Positions 9,176 through 29,668 of a DNA stretch of 64,000 nucleotides are shown piece after piece. The number at the start of each line of letters is the position of its first letter. Positions within the stretch are counted from its first letter, which is position 1. The DNA is from Eledone cirrhosa. Its lineage: Eukaryota. The stretch spans positions 12,586,001-12,650,000 of the forward strand of contig OZ024748.1 in the NCBI GenBank assembly GCA_964016885.1. The letters run 5' to 3'. The notes under the pieces were generated by a model. That model ran no database searches and had not been told where the DNA came from. It saw nothing but the letters and a program-made list of their open reading frames with translations. The translations under genes were made by a program, and so were the position numbers.

Positions 9176-9375
9176 NNNNNNNNNNNNNNNNNNNNNNNNN
9201 NNNNNNNNNNNNNNNNNNNNNNNNNNNNNNNNNNNNNNNNNNNNNNNNNNNNNNNNNNNNNNNNNNNNNNNNNNNNNNNNNNNNNNNNNNNNNNNNNNNN
9301 NNNNNNNNNNNNNNNNNNNNNNNNNNNNNNNNNNNNNNNNNNNNNNNNNNNNNNNNNNNNNNNNNNNNNNNNNNN
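9176..9375. other. Assembly gap (200 N)
   Basis: Run of N directly abutting array A. Confidence 1.
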
Positions 9376-9752
9376 GTAAATATTGCTGATGAGTTGTAAC
9401 AACAACGAAACTAGTTCAATATTCCTTGTCTGGCTTTCTGGAGAATAGAGGAAAGGTGTTTCCTCAAAAACCAGTATGACTCTAAAAACCGGTTTGTCTG
9501 TGTGTTTACATACAGAATAGCTGGCCACTCACAGTAAAGTGACCAGTGAAAAAACTTGGTACATCTACATATGTATACGTGTGTGTATTCATATACATAC
9601 TAGTATTTCAGTATACATATATGGATGTACATCTTTAACTTAATTGTTTAAGCGTCAGTCATACAAAAGTGAGTTACAAACGAAACGAAATTTAATTTCG
9701 TTTCGTTATTTGTTTTTATCGTCTCCGTTGAACCGGTACTTACTCACACTCT

Positions 9753-9805
9753 ATGCAAATTGGTCTGCCCACTACTAATTTTCATAGAAAAAGCATATAA
9801 CGATA
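9753..9805 (+). promoter_or_regulatory. Putative snRNA-type internal promoter module (octamer, PSE-like block, TATA-like), repeated in every unit
   Basis: ATGCAAAT 9753-9760, TAATTTTCATA 9776-9786, GCATATAA 9793-9800; same order conserved in the diverged array B unit. Confidence 0.45.
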
Positions 9806-9840
9806 TGTGCTTTTACGATTCTCTAGAGAGGCCGGAAGAT

Positions 9841-9893
9841 AGGTAAATATTGCTGATGAGTTGTAACAACAACGAAACTAGTTCAATATTCCT
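9841..9893 (+). ncRNA. Type I hammerhead ribozyme (representative of the 22 copies in array A)
   Basis: AGG-TA bulge-AATATTG / CTGATGA / GTTGT-AACA-ACAAC / GAAA / C-TA-G / TT^ / CAATATT-CCT; predicted cleavage after GUU at 9883. Confidence 0.9.
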
Positions 9894-12800
9894 TGTCTGG
9901 CTTTCTGGAGAATAGAGGAAAGGTGTTTCCTCAAAAACCAGTATGACTCTAAAAACCGGTTTGTCTGTGTGTTTACATACAGAATAGCTGGCCACTCACA
10001 GTAAAGTGACCAGTGAAAAAACTTGGTACATCTACATATGTATACGTGTGTGTATTCATATACATACTAGTATTTCAGTATACATATATGGATGTACATC
10101 TTTAACTTAATTGTTTAAGCGTCAGTCATACAAAAGTGAGTTACAAACGAAACGAAATTTAATTTCGTTTCGTTATTTGTTTTTATCGTCTCCGTTGAAC
10201 CGGTACTTACTCACACTCTATGCAAATTGGTCTGCCCACTACTAATTTTCATAGAAAAAGCATATAACGATATGTGCTTTTACGATTCTCTAGAGAGGCC
10301 GGAAGATAGGTAAATATTGCTGATGAGTTGTAACAACAACGAAACTAGTTCAATATTCCTTGTCTGGCTTTCTGGAGAATAGAGGAAAGGTGTTTCCTCA
10401 AAAACCAGTATGACTCTAAAAACCGGTTTGTCTGTGTGTTTACATACAGAATAGCTGGCCACTCACAGTAAAGTGACCAGTGAAAAAACTTGGTACATCT
10501 ACATATGTATACGTGTGTGTATTCATATACATACTAGTATTTCAGTATACATATATGGATGTACATCTTTAACTTAATTGTTTAAGCGTCAGTCATACAA
10601 AAGTGAGTTACAAACGAAACGAAATTTAATTTCGTTTCGTTATTTGTTTTTATCGTCTCCGTTGAACCGGTACTTACTCACACTCTATGCAAATTGGTCT
10701 GCCCACTACTAATTTTCATAGAAAAAGCATATAACGATATGTGCTTTTACGATTCTCTAGAGAGGCCGGAAGATAGGTAAATATTGCTGATGAGTTGTAA
10801 CAACAACGAAACTAGTTCAATATTCCTTGTCTGGCTTTCTGGAGAATAGAGGAAAGGTGTTTCCTCAAAAACCAGTATGACTCTAAAAACCGGTTTGTCT
10901 GTGTGTTTACATACAGAATAGCTGGCCACTCACAGTAAAGTGACCAGTGAAAAAACTTGGTACATCTACATATGTATACGTGTGTGTATTCATATACATA
11001 CTAGTATTTCAGTATACATATATGGATGTACATCTTTAACTTAATTGTTTAAGCGTCAGTCATACAAAAGTGAGTTACAAACGAAACGAAATTTAATTTC
11101 GTTTCGTTATTTGTTTTTATCGTCTCCGTTGAACCGGTACTTACTCACACTCTATGCAAATTGGTCTGCCCACTACTAATTTTCATAGAAAAAGCATATA
11201 ACGATATGTGCTTTTACGATTCTCTAGAGAGGCCGGAAGATAGGTAAATATTGCTGATGAGTTGTAACAACAACGAAACTAGTTCAATATTCCTTGTCTG
11301 GCTTTCTGGAGAATAGAGGAAAGGTGTTTCCTCAAAAACCAGTATGACTCTAAAAACCGGTTTGTCTGTGTGTTTACATACAGAATAGCTGGCCACTCAC
11401 AGTAAAGTGACCAGTGAAAAAACTTGGTACATCTACATATGTATACGTGTGTGTATTCATATACATACTAGTATTTCAGTATACATATATGGATGTACAT
11501 CTTTAACTTAATTGTTTAAGCGTCAGTCATACAAAAGTGAGTTACAAACGAAACGAAATTTAATTTCGTTTCGTTATTTGTTTTTATCGTCTCCGTTGAA
11601 CCGGTACTTACTCACACTCTATGCAAATTGGTCTGCCCACTACTAATTTTCATAGAAAAAGCATATAACGATATGTGCTTTTACGATTCTCTAGAGAGGC
11701 CGGAAGATAGGTAAATATTGCTGATGAGTTGTAACAACAACGAAACTAGTTCAATATTCCTTGTCTGGCTTTCTGGAGAATAGAGGAAAGGTGTTTCCTC
11801 AAAAACCAGTATGACTCTAAAAACCGGTTTGTCTGTGTGTTTACATACAGAATAGCTGGCCACTCACAGTAAAGTGACCAGTGAAAAAACTTGGTACATC
11901 TACATATGTATACGTGTGTGTATTCATATACATACTAGTATTTCAGTATACATATATGGATGTACATCTTTAACTTAATTGTTTAAGCGTCAGTCATACA
12001 AAAGTGAGTTACAAACGAAACGAAATTTAATTTCGTTTCGTTATTTGTTTTTATCGTCTCCGTTGAACCGGTACTTACTCACACTCTATGCAAATTGGTC
12101 TGCCCACTACTAATTTTCATAGAAAAAGCATATAACGATATGTGCTTTTACGATTCTCTAGAGAGGCCGGAAGATAGGTAAATATTGCTGATGAGTTGTA
12201 ACAACAACGAAACTAGTTCAATATTCCTTGTCTGGCTTTCTGGAGAATAGAGGAAAGGTGTTTCCTCAAAAACCAGTATGACTCTAAAAACCGGTTTGTC
12301 TGTGTGTTTACATACAGAATAGCTGGCCACTCACAGTAAAGTGACCAGTGAAAAAACTTGGTACATCTACATATGTATACGTGTGTGTATTCATATACAT
12401 ACTAGTATTTCAGTATACATATATGGATGTACATCTTTAACTTAATTGTTTAAGCGTCAGTCATACAAAAGTGAGTTACAAACGAAACGAAATTTAATTT
12501 CGTTTCGTTATTTGTTTTTATCGTCTCCGTTGAACCGGTACTTACTCACACTCTATGCAAATTGGTCTGCCCACTACTAATTTTCATAGAAAAAGCATAT
12601 AACGATATGTGCTTTTACGATTCTCTAGAGAGGCCGGAAGATAGGTAAATATTGCTGATGAGTTGTAACAACAACGAAACTAGTTCAATATTCCTTGTCT
12701 GGCTTTCTGGAGAATAGAGGAAAGGTGTTTCCTCAAAAACCAGTATGACTCTAAAAACCGGTTTGTCTGTGTGTTTACATACAGAATAGCTGGCCACTCA

Positions 12801-15800
12801 CAGTAAAGTGACCAGTGAAAAAACTTGGTACATCTACATATGTATACGTGTGTGTATTCATATACATACTAGTATTTCAGTATACATATATGGATGTACA
12901 TCTTTAACTTAATTGTTTAAGCGTCAGTCATACAAAAGTGAGTTACAAACGAAACGAAATTTAATTTCGTTTCGTTATTTGTTTTTATCGTCTCCGTTGA
13001 ACCGGTACTTACTCACACTCTATGCAAATTGGTCTGCCCACTACTAATTTTCATAGAAAAAGCATATAACGATATGTGCTTTTACGATTCTCTAGAGAGG
13101 CCGGAAGATAGGTAAATATTGCTGATGAGTTGTAACAACAACGAAACTAGTTCAATATTCCTTGTCTGGCTTTCTGGAGAATAGAGGAAAGGTGTTTCCT
13201 CAAAAACCAGTATGACTCTAAAAACCGGTTTGTCTGTGTGTTTACATACAGAATAGCTGGCCACTCACAGTAAAGTGACCAGTGAAAAAACTTGGTACAT
13301 CTACATATGTATACGTGTGTGTATTCATATACATACTAGTATTTCAGTATACATATATGGATGTACATCTTTAACTTAATTGTTTAAGCGTCAGTCATAC
13401 AAAAGTGAGTTACAAACGAAACGAAATTTAATTTCGTTTCGTTATTTGTTTTTATCGTCTCCGTTGAACCGGTACTTACTCACACTCTATGCAAATTGGT
13501 CTGCCCACTACTAATTTTCATAGAAAAAGCATATAACGATATGTGCTTTTACGATTCTCTAGAGAGGCCGGAAGATAGGTAAATATTGCTGATGAGTTGT
13601 AACAACAACGAAACTAGTTCAATATTCCTTGTCTGGCTTTCTGGAGAATAGAGGAAAGGTGTTTCCTCAAAAACCAGTATGACTCTAAAAACCGGTTTGT
13701 CTGTGTGTTTACATACAGAATAGCTGGCCACTCACAGTAAAGTGACCAGTGAAAAAACTTGGTACATCTACATATGTATACGTGTGTGTATTCATATACA
13801 TACTAGTATTTCAGTATACATATATGGATGTACATCTTTAACTTAATTGTTTAAGCGTCAGTCATACAAAAGTGAGTTACAAACGAAACGAAATTTAATT
13901 TCGTTTCGTTATTTGTTTTTATCGTCTCCGTTGAACCGGTACTTACTCACACTCTATGCAAATTGGTCTGCCCACTACTAATTTTCATAGAAAAAGCATA
14001 TAACGATATGTGCTTTTACGATTCTCTAGAGAGGCCGGAAGATAGGTAAATATTGCTGATGAGTTGTAACAACAACGAAACTAGTTCAATATTCCTTGTC
14101 TGGCTTTCTGGAGAATAGAGGAAAGGTGTTTCCTCAAAAACCAGTATGACTCTAAAAACCGGTTTGTCTGTGTGTTTACATACAGAATAGCTGGCCACTC
14201 ACAGTAAAGTGACCAGTGAAAAAACTTGGTACATCTACATATGTATACGTGTGTGTATTCATATACATACTAGTATTTCAGTATACATATATGGATGTAC
14301 ATCTTTAACTTAATTGTTTAAGCGTCAGTCATACAAAAGTGAGTTACAAACGAAACGAAATTTAATTTCGTTTCGTTATTTGTTTTTATCGTCTCCGTTG
14401 AACCGGTACTTACTCACACTCTATGCAAATTGGTCTGCCCACTACTAATTTTCATAGAAAAAGCATATAACGATATGTGCTTTTACGATTCTCTAGAGAG
14501 GCCGGAAGATAGGTAAATATTGCTGATGAGTTGTAACAACAACGAAACTAGTTCAATATTCCTTGTCTGGCTTTCTGGAGAATAGAGGAAAGGTGTTTCC
14601 TCAAAAACCAGTATGACTCTAAAAACCGGTTTGTCTGTGTGTTTACATACAGAATAGCTGGCCACTCACAGTAAAGTGACCAGTGAAAAAACTTGGTACA
14701 TCTACATATGTATACGTGTGTGTATTCATATACATACTAGTATTTCAGTATACATATATGGATGTACATCTTTAACTTAATTGTTTAAGCGTCAGTCATA
14801 CAAAAGTGAGTTACAAACGAAACGAAATTTAATTTCGTTTCGTTATTTGTTTTTATCGTCTCCGTTGAACCGGTACTTACTCACACTCTATGCAAATTGG
14901 TCTGCCCACTACTAATTTTCATAGAAAAAGCATATAACGATATGTGCTTTTACGATTCTCTAGAGAGGCCGGAAGATAGGTAAATATTGCTGATGAGTTG
15001 TAACAACAACGAAACTAGTTCAATATTCCTTGTCTGGCTTTCTGGAGAATAGAGGAAAGGTGTTTCCTCAAAAACCAGTATGACTCTAAAAACCGGTTTG
15101 TCTGTGTGTTTACATACAGAATAGCTGGCCACTCACAGTAAAGTGACCAGTGAAAAAACTTGGTACATCTACATATGTATACGTGTGTGTATTCATATAC
15201 ATACTAGTATTTCAGTATACATATATGGATGTACATCTTTAACTTAATTGTTTAAGCGTCAGTCATACAAAAGTGAGTTACAAACGAAACGAAATTTAAT
15301 TTCGTTTCGTTATTTGTTTTTATCGTCTCCGTTGAACCGGTACTTACTCACACTCTATGCAAATTGGTCTGCCCACTACTAATTTTCATAGAAAAAGCAT
15401 ATAACGATATGTGCTTTTACGATTCTCTAGAGAGGCCGGAAGATAGGTAAATATTGCTGATGAGTTGTAACAACAACGAAACTAGTTCAATATTCCTTGT
15501 CTGGCTTTCTGGAGAATAGAGGAAAGGTGTTTCCTCAAAAACCAGTATGACTCTAAAAACCGGTTTGTCTGTGTGTTTACATACAGAATAGCTGGCCACT
15601 CACAGTAAAGTGACCAGTGAAAAAACTTGGTACATCTACATATGTATACGTGTGTGTATTCATATACATACTAGTATTTCAGTATACATATATGGATGTA
15701 CATCTTTAACTTAATTGTTTAAGCGTCAGTCATACAAAAGTGAGTTACAAACGAAACGAAATTTAATTTCGTTTCGTTATTTGTTTTTATCGTCTCCGTT

Positions 15801-18800
15801 GAACCGGTACTTACTCACACTCTATGCAAATTGGTCTGCCCACTACTAATTTTCATAGAAAAAGCATATAACGATATGTGCTTTTACGATTCTCTAGAGA
15901 GGCCGGAAGATAGGTAAATATTGCTGATGAGTTGTAACAACAACGAAACTAGTTCAATATTCCTTGTCTGGCTTTCTGGAGAATAGAGGAAAGGTGTTTC
16001 CTCAAAAACCAGTATGACTCTAAAAACCGGTTTGTCTGTGTGTTTACATACAGAATAGCTGGCCACTCACAGTAAAGTGACCAGTGAAAAAACTTGGTAC
16101 ATCTACATATGTATACGTGTGTGTATTCATATACATACTAGTATTTCAGTATACATATATGGATGTACATCTTTAACTTAATTGTTTAAGCGTCAGTCAT
16201 ACAAAAGTGAGTTACAAACGAAACGAAATTTAATTTCGTTTCGTTATTTGTTTTTATCGTCTCCGTTGAACCGGTACTTACTCACACTCTATGCAAATTG
16301 GTCTGCCCACTACTAATTTTCATAGAAAAAGCATATAACGATATGTGCTTTTACGATTCTCTAGAGAGGCCGGAAGATAGGTAAATATTGCTGATGAGTT
16401 GTAACAACAACGAAACTAGTTCAATATTCCTTGTCTGGCTTTCTGGAGAATAGAGGAAAGGTGTTTCCTCAAAAACCAGTATGACTCTAAAAACCGGTTT
16501 GTCTGTGTGTTTACATACAGAATAGCTGGCCACTCACAGTAAAGTGACCAGTGAAAAAACTTGGTACATCTACATATGTATACGTGTGTGTATTCATATA
16601 CATACTAGTATTTCAGTATACATATATGGATGTACATCTTTAACTTAATTGTTTAAGCGTCAGTCATACAAAAGTGAGTTACAAACGAAACGAAATTTAA
16701 TTTCGTTTCGTTATTTGTTTTTATCGTCTCCGTTGAACCGGTACTTACTCACACTCTATGCAAATTGGTCTGCCCACTACTAATTTTCATAGAAAAAGCA
16801 TATAACGATATGTGCTTTTACGATTCTCTAGAGAGGCCGGAAGATAGGTAAATATTGCTGATGAGTTGTAACAACAACGAAACTAGTTCAATATTCCTTG
16901 TCTGGCTTTCTGGAGAATAGAGGAAAGGTGTTTCCTCAAAAACCAGTATGACTCTAAAAACCGGTTTGTCTGTGTGTTTACATACAGAATAGCTGGCCAC
17001 TCACAGTAAAGTGACCAGTGAAAAAACTTGGTACATCTACATATGTATACGTGTGTGTATTCATATACATACTAGTATTTCAGTATACATATATGGATGT
17101 ACATCTTTAACTTAATTGTTTAAGCGTCAGTCATACAAAAGTGAGTTACAAACGAAACGAAATTTAATTTCGTTTCGTTATTTGTTTTTATCGTCTCCGT
17201 TGAACCGGTACTTACTCACACTCTATGCAAATTGGTCTGCCCACTACTAATTTTCATAGAAAAAGCATATAACGATATGTGCTTTTACGATTCTCTAGAG
17301 AGGCCGGAAGATAGGTAAATATTGCTGATGAGTTGTAACAACAACGAAACTAGTTCAATATTCCTTGTCTGGCTTTCTGGAGAATAGAGGAAAGGTGTTT
17401 CCTCAAAAACCAGTATGACTCTAAAAACCGGTTTGTCTGTGTGTTTACATACAGAATAGCTGGCCACTCACAGTAAAGTGACCAGTGAAAAAACTTGGTA
17501 CATCTACATATGTATACGTGTGTGTATTCATATACATACTAGTATTTCAGTATACATATATGGATGTACATCTTTAACTTAATTGTTTAAGCGTCAGTCA
17601 TACAAAAGTGAGTTACAAACGAAACGAAATTTAATTTCGTTTCGTTATTTGTTTTTATCGTCTCCGTTGAACCGGTACTTACTCACACTCTATGCAAATT
17701 GGTCTGCCCACTACTAATTTTCATAGAAAAAGCATATAACGATATGTGCTTTTACGATTCTCTAGAGAGGCCGGAAGATAGGTAAATATTGCTGATGAGT
17801 TGTAACAACAACGAAACTAGTTCAATATTCCTTGTCTGGCTTTCTGGAGAATAGAGGAAAGGTGTTTCCTCAAAAACCAGTATGACTCTAAAAACCGGTT
17901 TGTCTGTGTGTTTACATACAGAATAGCTGGCCACTCACAGTAAAGTGACCAGTGAAAAAACTTGGTACATCTACATATGTATACGTGTGTGTATTCATAT
18001 ACATACTAGTATTTCAGTATACATATATGGATGTACATCTTTAACTTAATTGTTTAAGCGTCAGTCATACAAAAGTGAGTTACAAACGAAACGAAATTTA
18101 ATTTCGTTTCGTTATTTGTTTTTATCGTCTCCGTTGAACCGGTACTTACTCACACTCTATGCAAATTGGTCTGCCCACTACTAATTTTCATAGAAAAAGC
18201 ATATAACGATATGTGCTTTTACGATTCTCTAGAGAGGCCGGAAGATAGGTAAATATTGCTGATGAGTTGTAACAACAACGAAACTAGTTCAATATTCCTT
18301 GTCTGGCTTTCTGGAGAATAGAGGAAAGGTGTTTCCTCAAAAACCAGTATGACTCTAAAAACCGGTTTGTCTGTGTGTTTACATACAGAATAGCTGGCCA
18401 CTCACAGTAAAGTGACCAGTGAAAAAACTTGGTACATCTACATATGTATACGTGTGTGTATTCATATACATACTAGTATTTCAGTATACATATATGGATG
18501 TACATCTTTAACTTAATTGTTTAAGCGTCAGTCATACAAAAGTGAGTTACAAACGAAACGAAATTTAATTTCGTTTCGTTATTTGTTTTTATCGTCTCCG
18601 TTGAACCGGTACTTACTCACACTCTATGCAAATTGGTCTGCCCACTACTAATTTTCATAGAAAAAGCATATAACGATATGTGCTTTTACGATTCTCTAGA
18701 GAGGCCGGAAGATAGGTAAATATTGCTGATGAGTTGTAACAACAACGAAACTAGTTCAATATTCCTTGTCTGGCTTTCTGGAGAATAGAGGAAAGGTGTT

Positions 18801-19452
18801 TCCTCAAAAACCAGTATGACTCTAAAAACCGGTTTGTCTGTGTGTTTACATACAGAATAGCTGGCCACTCACAGTAAAGTGACCAGTGAAAAAACTTGGT
18901 ACATCTACATATGTATACGTGTGTGTATTCATATACATACTAGTATTTCAGTATACATATATGGATGTACATCTTTAACTTAATTGTTTAAGCGTCAGTC
19001 ATACAAAAGTGAGTTACAAACGAAACGAAATTTAATTTCGTTTCGTTATTTGTTTTTATCGTCTCCGTTGAACCGGTACTTACTCACACTCTATGCAAAT
19101 TGGTCTGCCCACTACTAATTTTCATAGAAAAAGCATATAACGATATGTGCTTTTACGATTCTCTAGAGAGGCCGGAAGATAGGTAAATATTGCTGATGAG
19201 TTGTAACAACAACGAAACTAGTTCAATATTCCTTGTCTGGCTTTCTGGAGAATAGAGGAAAGGTGTTTCCTCAAAAACCAGTATGACTCTAAAAACCGGT
19301 TTGTCTGTGTGTTTACATACAGAATAGCTGGCCACTCACAGTAAAGTGACCAGTGAAAAAACTTGGTACATCTACATATGTATACGTGTGTGTATTCATA
19401 TACATACTAGTATTTCAGTATACATATATGGATGTACATCTTTAACTTAATT

Positions 19453-19642
<190 letters not shown>

Positions 19643-27432: not shown

Positions 27433-27979
<547 letters not shown>

Positions 27980-27983
<4 letters not shown>

Positions 27984-28254
27984 TATGCATGTATACGTAC
28001 ATACATATATGTATACAGGCGTACAGTAGCATGCACATATATATATATATATACATATATACATACATGTGCATACAGGTACACATACATATATGCACGT
28101 ATCAGTTTAGCGGCGCCAACGTCGCTTTGTTCGTTTGTAAACAAACTGAACAGCCTGAATTTATGCCATACGGTGTTAAGGCAACCACGTCACCTTTTTG
28201 TTCAACACTGACACAGGAACGATGTACTAGTTTCAAGCTTGTTAGCTATCATCA
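27980..28254 (-). mobile_element. Inverted partial unit of array B
   Basis: Reverse complement of the unit from TGATGA (HHR core) to CATGCATACTTA; left end joins (TA)n; TCA microhomology at 28252-28254. Confidence 0.9.
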
Positions 28255-28336
28255 CTCAATATGCAAATTAGGCTGCTCAGCCGTTAATTTTCATAAGGAA
28301 AGTATATACTTTCGAACGTTCAACTATCTGGCAGAT

Positions 28337-28389
28337 GGGTAAACGGTGCTGATGATAGCTAACAAGCTTGAAACTAGTACATCGTTCCT
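28337..28389 (+). ncRNA. Type I hammerhead ribozyme (array B unit 1)
   Basis: GGG-TA-AACGGTG / CTGATGA / T-AGCT-AACA-AGCT-T / GAAA / C-TA-G / TA^ / CATCGTT-CCT; predicted cleavage after GUA at 28379; U-U mismatch at 10.1/11.1. Confidence 0.85.
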
Positions 28390-28802
28390 GTGTCAGTGTT
28401 GAACAAAAAGGTGACGTGGTTGCCTTAACACCGTATGGCATAAATTCAGGCTGTTCAGTTTGTTTACAAACGAACAAAGCGACGTTGGCGCCGCTAAACT
28501 GATACGTGCATATATGTATGTGTACCTGTATGCACATGTATGTATATATGTATATATATATATATATGTGCATGCTACTGTACGCCTGTATACATATATG
28601 TATGTACGTATACATGCATACTTACATTTAAGTAAGTGCCATACTAAGAGTGAGAAATGAAATTTCATTTTCATTTTGTTTCAATTTATCGTTTTCGGTA
28701 TGCCTGACCGATTTAACTCACTCAATATGCAAATTAGGCTGCTCAGCCGTTAATTTTCATAAGGAAAGTATATACTTTCGAACGTTCAACTATCTGGCAG
28801 AT

Positions 28803-28855
28803 GGGTAAACGGTGCTGATGATAGCTAACAAGCTTGAAACTAGTACATCGTTCCT
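28803..28855 (+). ncRNA. Type I hammerhead ribozyme (array B unit 2)
   Basis: Same sequence as 28337-28389, shifted +466. Confidence 0.85.
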
Positions 28856-29268
28856 GTGTCAGTGTTGAACAAAAAGGTGACGTGGTTGCCTTAACACCGT
28901 ATGGCATAAATTCAGGCTGTTCAGTTTGTTTACAAACGAACAAAGCGACGTTGGCGCCGCTAAACTGATACGTGCATATATGTATGTGTACCTGTATGCA
29001 CATGTATGTATATATGTATATATATATATATATGTGCATGCTACTGTACGCCTGTATACATATATGTATGTACGTATACATGCATACTTACATTTAAGTA
29101 AGTGCCATACTAAGAGTGAGAAATGAAATTTCATTTTCATTTTGTTTCAATTCATCGTTTTCGGTATGCCTGACCGATTTAACTCACTCAATATGCAAAT
29201 TAGGCTGCTCAGCCGTTAATTTTCATAAGGAAAGTATATACTTTCGAACGTTCAACTATCTGGCAGAT

Positions 29269-29321
29269 GGGTAAACGGTGCTGATGATAGCTAACAAGCT
29301 TGAAACTAGTACATCGTTCCT
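29269..29321 (+). ncRNA. Type I hammerhead ribozyme (array B unit 3)
   Basis: Same sequence as 28337-28389, shifted +932. Confidence 0.85.
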
Positions 29322-29615
29322 GTGTCAGTGTTGAACAAAAAGGTGACGTGGTTGCCTTAACACCGTATGGCATAAATTCAGGCTGTTCAGTTTGTTTACA
29401 AACGAACAAAGCGACGTTGGCGCCGCTAAACTGATACGTGCATATATGTATGTGTACCTGTATGCACATGTATGTATATATGTATATATATATATATATG
29501 TGCATGCTACTGTACGCCTGTATACATATATGTATGTACGTATACATGCATACTTACATTTAAGTAAGTGCCATACTAAGAGTGAGAAATGAAATTTCAT
29601 TTTCATTTTGTTTCA

Positions 29616-29668
<53 letters not shown>

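What the first reader, a model, noticed from the sequence alone, without database searches (positions are those of the whole stretch)
28252..29621. Second, strongly diverged family member with the same unit length (466 vs 467) and a covarying ribozyme
Seen: the units are colinear but differ widely. Stem I changes from AATATTG/CAATATT to AACGGTG/CATCGTT and stem II from GTTGT/ACAAC to AGCT/AGCT. The core, loop II AACA, the TA bulge closed by RGG/CCT and GAAACTAGT are invariant. Inference: compensatory change plus a conserved bulge and loop II (the known tertiary-contact sites of natural HHRs) indicates selection on RNA catalysis. The conserved length suggests a size constraint on the RNA monomer.
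Basis: partly seen in the sequence, partly recalled or inferred. Interest (0 to 1): 0.85.

Follow-up and report, generated by a model that had tools for sequence, protein, structure and literature searches.

The report
Penelope-mobilised hammerhead retrozyme family
This is one of tens of thousands of copies of a ~450-base repeat holding a predicted self-cutting RNA, likely pasted into TA repeats by Penelope-type jumping genes and possibly carrying its own U6-like promoter; its length match to the neighbouring repeat is likely coincidence.

Summary
28252-29621 is 2.9 copies of a 466-bp unit (B) with an intact type I hammerhead, about 62% identical to the 467-bp A unit. Both belong to one family with at least 36,351 ribozyme matches in this genome. 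Stems I and II covary, as does a long-range helix. It is a non-LTR retrozyme, a known class. Two additions. (1) Insertions follow Penelope-like-element (PLE) rules: 77 of 86 3' ends sit at two fixed internal sites, mostly joined to (TA)n, and none at the cleavage site. In 17 of 22 head-to-head pairs one arm ends at each site, and in none do both end at the same site. A young PLE with an 894-aa frame shows the same pattern. The window's own inverted arm (27980-28254) was missed. (2) Units carry the 13-mer found upstream of this genome's U6, U6atac and MRP genes, but its TATA lies 4-7 bp closer and RNase P lacks it. Cleavage, expression, circles and the partner PLE are not shown.

The parts
28252..29621 (+). 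B array, 2.9 tandem 466-bp retrozyme units; 5'-truncated, 3' end at site 2 joined to (TA)n
   Evidence: the copies differ at one base
27980..28254 (-). Inverted head-to-head arm: starts inside the ribozyme core (lacks C3), ends at site 1 joined to (TA)n; overlaps the direct arm by 3 nt (TCA)
28337..28389 (+). Type I hammerhead, copy 1: stem I with TA bulge, CTGATGA, stem II with U-U and loop AACA, GAAA, 2-bp palindromic stem III; predicted cut after 28379 (GUA)
   Evidence: sequence
28803..28855 (+). Hammerhead copy 2; predicted cut after 28845
29269..29321 (+). Hammerhead copy 3; predicted cut after 29311
28260..28272 (+). 13-mer TATGCAAATTAGG matching the proximal element of this genome's U6, U6atac and MRP genes (repeated at 28726 and 29192); also the 5' arm of a conserved hairpin
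28303..28309 (+). TATA-like box 42 bp after the 13-mer; by U6 spacing +1 would fall at 28333, the 5' edge of stem I (inferred)
   Evidence: positions 28769 and 28799 in the next unit
28433..28644 (+). Domain closed by a long-range helix (28433-28440 with 28637-28644) that covaries across A, B1 and B2; holds the TA-rich hairpin and the site-1 hairpin
29556..29621 (+). 59-nt 'tail' between 3'-end site 1 and site 2, present on one arm only
27934..27981 (.). (TA)n target, left side
29619..29668 (.). (TA)n target, right side
9376..19457 (+). A array, 21.6 units of 467 bp (21 full units identical), 3' end at site 1 into (TA)n; the 5' end abuts an assembly gap

Best explanation
This is a young insertion of a non-coding tandem repeat with a type I hammerhead (a non-LTR retrozyme), likely copied from RNA into a (TA)n tract by the reverse transcriptase-endonuclease of a Penelope-like element. 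Shown: an intact ribozyme core with covarying stems; a strongly self-paired monomer; dispersal as near-identical arrays; two fixed 3' ends into (TA)n; scattered 5' ends; head-to-head arms ending one at each site; a young protein-coding PLE in the same genome with the same insertion pattern. Inferred steps: (1) a multimeric transcript is made, perhaps from the U6-like element in each upstream unit. (2) Neighbouring ribozymes would cut it, likely as dimers through the ACUAGU palindrome, and monomers would be circularised as in other retrozymes. (3) The PLE protein would nick (TA)n and start cDNA at two internal sites 56-69 nt apart, one per DNA end, copying one to many units before the two cDNAs join head to head. 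(4) Older arrays then drift as ordinary satellites. A and B are long-separated subfamilies whose equal length is likely coincidence.
For: Ribozyme. Whole-monomer fold: circular MFE z -11.3 (A) and -6.8 (B) against 40 dinucleotide shuffles each; covarying long-range helix. Dispersal: 40 full-length 100%-identical hits on 8 contigs among 40 scored of 71 candidates. Ends: 34 at site 1, 43 at site 2, 9 elsewhere, of 86 (counted from the list); 62 of 86 directly followed by TA repeats; 59 of 85 5' ends next to an inverted copy (pairs can count twice). Pairs: 17 site1+site2, 5 with one end unclassified, 0 same-site, of 22. Autonomous PLE: 150 scored hits at 95-100% to one endonuclease domain; 894-aa frame; two 3' sites about 97 nt apart into (TA)n with head-to-head arms. 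Print: inverted 5'-truncated copies, one-sided tail and (TA)n bias are PLE traits (PMC8557442, passages); two internal RT start sites flank the tail (PMC11167929, part 2). Array-wide private variants on both arms (164A>G in 13 of 13 units of L062/L063) fit one template molecule.
Against: No cleavage assay. Only 1 of 9 frog retrozyme dimers cleaved in vitro (bioRxiv 10.64898/2026.07.22.740005). No Rfam match at gathering score and no hammerhead family among the 150 of 203 weak matches shown. The local MFE does not give the catalytic fold and is weak for B (z -0.6 and -1.4). No autonomous PLE sharing sequence with the unit was found: 11 divergent ribozyme loci had no adjacent PLE frame, and the active PLE's tail looks unrelated by eye. 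Array homogeneity fits a homogeneous linear source as well as a circle, and older arrays show irregular higher-order variants typical of unequal crossing-over. Loci were the first or best hits listed, not a random sample, and some overlap.
Confidence: 0.82

Rival explanations
1. Same PLE-driven insertion, but the template is an uncleaved linear read-through multimer; the ribozyme and circles are not needed for transposition.
For: In vitro, Poseidon uses unprocessed RNA and ribozyme mutants still insert (PMC11167929). No 3' end lies at the cleavage site. Higher-order patterns in arrays could be copied from source arrays.
Against: Ribozyme stems covary and the core is retained across subfamilies 62% alike. 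Circles are the main RNA form for coral, mussel and axolotl retrozymes (PMC7229834, sections 14 and 17).
Confidence: 0.3
2. The units are the pseudo-LTR of an autonomous PLE that I did not find, and the arrays are truncated pieces of it.
For: Insertion anatomy is that of a PLE. In Xenopus 24 of 57 retrozyme families match TEs, nearly all PLE termini (preprint). Only a few PLE families were examined.
Against: Arrays of up to 30 pure units. The 14 single or short loci read have truncation, inversion or another unit upstream, no evident PLE frame. The PLEs seen carry different, minimal-type ribozymes.
Confidence: 0.08
3. A DNA-level satellite spread by unequal crossing-over or DNA circles, with a relic ribozyme.
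For: Long homogeneous arrays (21 identical A units) and satellite-like turnover in older arrays.
Against: Does not explain strand-specific fixed 3' ends, 5' truncation, the one-arm-each rule, (TA)n targeting or compensatory pairs.
Confidence: 0.04
4. The conserved TATGCAAATT block is only an RNA hairpin arm, not a promoter; transcription is by read-through from host promoters.
For: It pairs with the conserved block downstream. TATA spacing is 41-42 against 46-48 in five genes. The held-out RNase P gene lacks the motif and so does the 310-bp family. The window's own A variant scores only 12.0 (27/1000 shuffles). A T5 run in A would stop Pol III before a full unit. A review states retrozymes seem to lack promoters (PMC7761336).
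Against: B matches the five-promoter consensus 13/13 (0/1000 shuffles). The 10-mer, including its unpaired CAA, is invariant in 23 of 23 aligned units, while other helices drift by compensatory change. A TATA-like box follows at a fixed 41-42 bp in all 11 units shown.
Confidence: 0.5

Closest known systems
Metazoan non-LTR retrozymes (Cervera and de la Pena 2020, PMC7229834; mussel, coral, axolotl)
   Same: Non-coding low-GC tandem units, each with a type I hammerhead; predicted highly self-paired monomer; PLEs in the same genome.
   Different: Units of 407-538 bp exceed the 170-400 nt of that paper (but lie within 51-972 bp of the 2026 preprint). The sections read propose PLE mobilisation without describing junctions. 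Expression and circles are not shown here.
Penelope-like elements with C-terminal GIY-YIG (Hydra, Neptune, Poseidon; PMC8557442, PMC11167929)
   Same: Inverted 5'-truncated arm, one-sided tail between two start sites, (TA)n targets, hammerhead with palindromic helix III.
   Different: No protein frame; canonical rather than minimal ribozyme; tail 56-69 nt rather than 30-40; no shared sequence with the PLEs examined.
Newt satellite 2 and schistosome Sm-alpha
   Same: Hammerhead satellites with a promoter inside the unit that drives the next unit (snRNA-type Pol II in newt, Pol III in schistosome; passages in PMC2220036 and PMC6765202; the primary newt paper was not held).
   Different: Here the element resembles the upstream motif of the host's own U6, U6atac and MRP genes and not that of U1/U2; activity and polymerase are untested.

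Membership tests
non-LTR retrozyme | Type I hammerhead with intact core in every tandem unit | tested here: met
   no Rfam hit, so assignment is by core consensus and pairing
non-LTR retrozyme | Short, low-GC, non-coding tandem units | tested here: met
   period 466/467; GC about 35%; only low-complexity antisense stop-free frames of about 115-135 codons
non-LTR retrozyme | Self-cleavage as monomer or dimer | not testable with these tools
   needs in vitro transcription; ACUAGU self-duplex predicted at -6.8 kcal/mol
non-LTR retrozyme | Expressed as linear and circular monomer RNA | tested here: inconclusive
   no RNA holder listed; the one RNA run laid gave no test
non-LTR retrozyme | Autonomous PLEs in the same genome | tested here: met
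   Pfam GIY-YIG E 6e-4, below cut-off; Pfam finds no RT model, RT and clade are read from motifs and not tested by a tree
Penelope-like element | RT plus GIY-YIG frame | tested here: not met
   none in the unit
Penelope-like element | Inverted 5'-truncated arm and one-sided tail | tested here: met
Penelope-like element | (TA)n target bias | tested here: met
   62 of 86 3' ends
Penelope-like element | Sequence shared with the pLTR of an autonomous family | tested here: inconclusive
   not found in the few families and 11 loci examined; no full PLE library
type 3 Pol III promoter (U6-like) | Host proximal element | tested here: met
   13-mer in 5 promoters of 3 gene classes and in the units; absent at RNase P, U1 and U2
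type 3 Pol III promoter (U6-like) | Element-to-TATA spacing of 46-48 bp | tested here: not met
   41-42 bp in the units
type 3 Pol III promoter (U6-like) | Drives Pol III transcription | not testable with these tools
   needs reporter, inhibitor or 5'-end data

The most novel reading that the evidence does not exclude
A viroid-like ribozyme circle that has captured the host's U6-type upstream promoter, keeps it through retrotransposition because tandem repetition and circularisation place it inside the RNA, and is integrated by PLE twin priming from two structure-defined sites without sharing sequence with the PLE: a self-transcribing, SINE-like parasite of Penelope elements.
Probability: 0.3. 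Interest if true: 0.75.

Novelty: new member of a known kind. Interest (0 to 1): 0.5.

Why it matters
How animal retrozymes move and what transcribes them are open in the papers read. PLEs were proposed from co-occurrence and phylogeny, and the 2026 preprint says the mechanism remains to be worked out. Here thousands of young insertions carry a PLE integration footprint beside an intact young PLE, so RNA and candidate enzyme can be tested together in vitro. The one-arm-per-site rule also suggests what the unexplained PLE tail is for. If the U6-like element works, it contradicts the view that retrozymes lack promoters. The covarying ribozyme and the length match are in themselves ordinary.

Tried and rejected
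Size constraint: rejected. Invariant loop II: rejected. Rfam: nothing at gathering score; weak hits are hairpin miRNA models. Expression: no RNA holder listed; the one RNA run laid gave no test and the contig runs are of unrecorded kind. Partner search: ribozymes with the same stem III but other flanks were mostly family mutants (753 matches, 13 control); 11 divergent ones were solo remnants. L107 looked like a PLE/retrozyme chimera but reads as a retrozyme nested in a PLE that was later copied. Promoter: U1 (8 loci), U2 (5 loci) and RNase P upstream regions lack the motif; of 18 U6 loci viewed, 14 lack it and look like retrocopies. Circle versus linear template: periodicity test inconclusive. 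A-to-I fingerprint: one suggestive array-wide A>G only. Earlier scan notes: none. The newt promoter paper was not held, so it is cited second-hand. The supplement of PMC7229834 and the preprint's supplements could not be seen and may list this family.

Full report
Observation. TRF finds 2.9 copies of a 466-bp unit at 28252-29621 (B) and 21.6 copies of a 467-bp unit at 9376-19457 (A). The units are colinear and about 62% identical. Each holds the type I hammerhead order: stem I, CTGATGA, stem II, GAAA, a 2-bp stem III with a 2-nt loop, the cleavage triplet (GUA in B, GUU in A) and stem I 3'. Rfam does not detect the motif, and the local MFE is not the catalytic fold, as expected for an unstable helix III. 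ACTAGT is palindromic; such ribozymes are described as active dimers in tandem repeats (PMC4209133, part 1).

Family. The core pattern has 23,411 genome matches against 0 control. A disjoint CTGACGA pattern adds 12,940, so at least 36,351. The host is an animal with a 3.0-Gb assembly; my guess of a cephalopod comes from the repeat landscape and was not tested. Three lineages appear: A, B1 (the window's) and B2. On 38 distinct ribozymes (13 of 51 candidates left out, mostly near-duplicates and indel or junction variants) the covariation score is 0.267 against 0.100 (0/500 shuffles), and pairing is 89% against 30-45% for slid partners. The pair-count measures are weaker (37/500 and 322/500) and the rows are related. 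Across 11 whole units, 19 of 84 predicted pairs show a double change, including a long-range helix with a different pair set in each lineage. Circular monomers fold far better than shuffles. Loop II, N7, the triplet and the base beside the bulge all vary, and U10.1-U11.1 is the majority state. Unit lengths are A 461-470, B1 458-538 (an internal TA tract expands) and B2 407-447. The 466/467 match arises from cancelling indels, so I reject a tight size constraint.

Insertion anatomy. The window's array has an inverted partial copy head to head at 27974-28254 and (TA)n on both sides. Young B1 arrays elsewhere are over 99% identical and often built the same way. Mapping ends in the fetched loci (first or best hits, partly overlapping, not random) gave 86 3' ends: 34 at site 1, 43 at site 2 and 9 elsewhere, two of which are not true ends. 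None lies at the cleavage site, and 62 are followed directly by TA repeats. 5' ends are scattered, and 59 of 85 adjoin an inverted copy. The two sites are at homologous TTTA motifs in A, B1 and B2, 56-69 nt apart; site 1 lies in a small hairpin loop and site 2 just after a conserved hairpin. Of 22 head-to-head pairs, 17 have one arm at each site, 5 have one end that the motif rule left unclassified (the window and L070 are site 2), and none has both arms at one site.

The PLE link. Inverted truncated arms, a one-sided tail and (TA)n bias are PLE traits (PMC8557442, passages). For Poseidon the tail lies between two internal reverse-transcription starts (PMC11167929, part 2 of 4). PLE-like frames occur near several arrays. 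One family is young (150 scored hits at 95-100%), has an 894-aa frame ending in a GIY-YIG-like domain, carries a minimal-type ribozyme, and inserts into (TA)n with two sites about 97 nt apart. Calling it Hydra-like is a resemblance, not a test. Its tail shows no evident sequence match to the retrozyme, and no autonomous element with the A/B ribozyme was found. The machinery class is therefore well supported and the partner family is not identified. I infer twin priming, one RNA site per DNA end. Whether the template is a circle or a linear multimer is unresolved.

Promoter-like element. TATGCAAATT is invariant in 23 of 23 aligned units, the longest invariant block in the alignment; one further unit, L132, lacks the exact match. 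The same motif lies at -77 to -79 of three U6 locus types, U6atac and MRP, each with TATA at -30. B scores 20.2 bits (0/1000 shuffles), most A copies 16.0, and the window's A variant 12.0 (27/1000). A TATA-like box follows, and U6 spacing would put +1 at the 5' edge of stem I in B1 and most B2. Against this: spacing is 41-42 rather than 46-48; RNase P, held out, lacks the motif; the block is one arm of a conserved hairpin; the short B2 variant shifts the predicted start into stem I; and A has a T5 run. I give a working promoter about even odds. Precedents are newt satellite 2 and schistosome Sm-alpha (passages), while a review says retrozymes seem to lack promoters (PMC7761336, passage).

Known work and novelty. 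The element fits non-LTR retrozymes (PMC7229834: abstract, passages, sections 14 and 17). A 2026 preprint argues PLE origin from co-occurrence and trees (10.64898/2026.07.22.740005, parts 1-3 of 5). Searches returned no description of this family, of a two-site junction rule for retrozymes, or of a U6-like element in one. The library lacks most subscription papers and repeat databases, and the key supplements were unseen. A squid genome paper lists 235 hammerhead matches without analysis (PMC6962438, passage). Verdict: a new member of a known kind, with useful new evidence on mobilisation and a testable promoter lead; interest 0.5.

Noticed in passing
window 27571-27893: A separate small element between TA/TC tracts with its own inverted arms (hairpin at 27710-27808) and a degenerate hammerhead-like core near 27811; a related copy lies beside the A array in L042. 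Likely another non-autonomous PLE-type family using the same targets.
   Followed up: partly
L158:790-3100 (G000:C1 about 5544300-5546600): Unrelated 310-bp tandem family with a type I hammerhead (CTGAAGA core, U-U at 10.1-11.1, AATA loop, ACGCGT palindrome), a 5' inversion and a (TA)n 3' end; it lacks the U6-like motif.
   Followed up: partly
L251:2413-5094: Young PLE with an intact 894-aa frame, a 3' minimal-type ribozyme and a 97-nt tail that runs into its own 5' leader; Pfam does not recognise its RT.
   Followed up: partly
L072, L073, L074, L159, L160 versus L168-L178, L092-L095, L262: In this genome U6, U6atac and MRP share one upstream motif, while U1, U2 and RNase P share a different TCAGT-type element: RNase P groups with the Pol II snRNA genes.
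   Followed up: partly
L031, L037, L250, L253, L256: Several other short inverted-repeat elements with hammerhead-like cores sit in (TA)n tracts next to retrozyme and PLE copies, suggesting many small PLE parasites.
   Followed up: no
window 9177-9375: An assembly gap abuts the 5' end of the A array, so its length, its perfect homogeneity and any inverted arm are uncertain.
   Followed up: no
L078, L083 (G000:C19 U6 cluster): Some tandem U6 genes have an element of about 190 bp inserted between TATA and the gene, with the TATA region duplicated.
   Followed up: no
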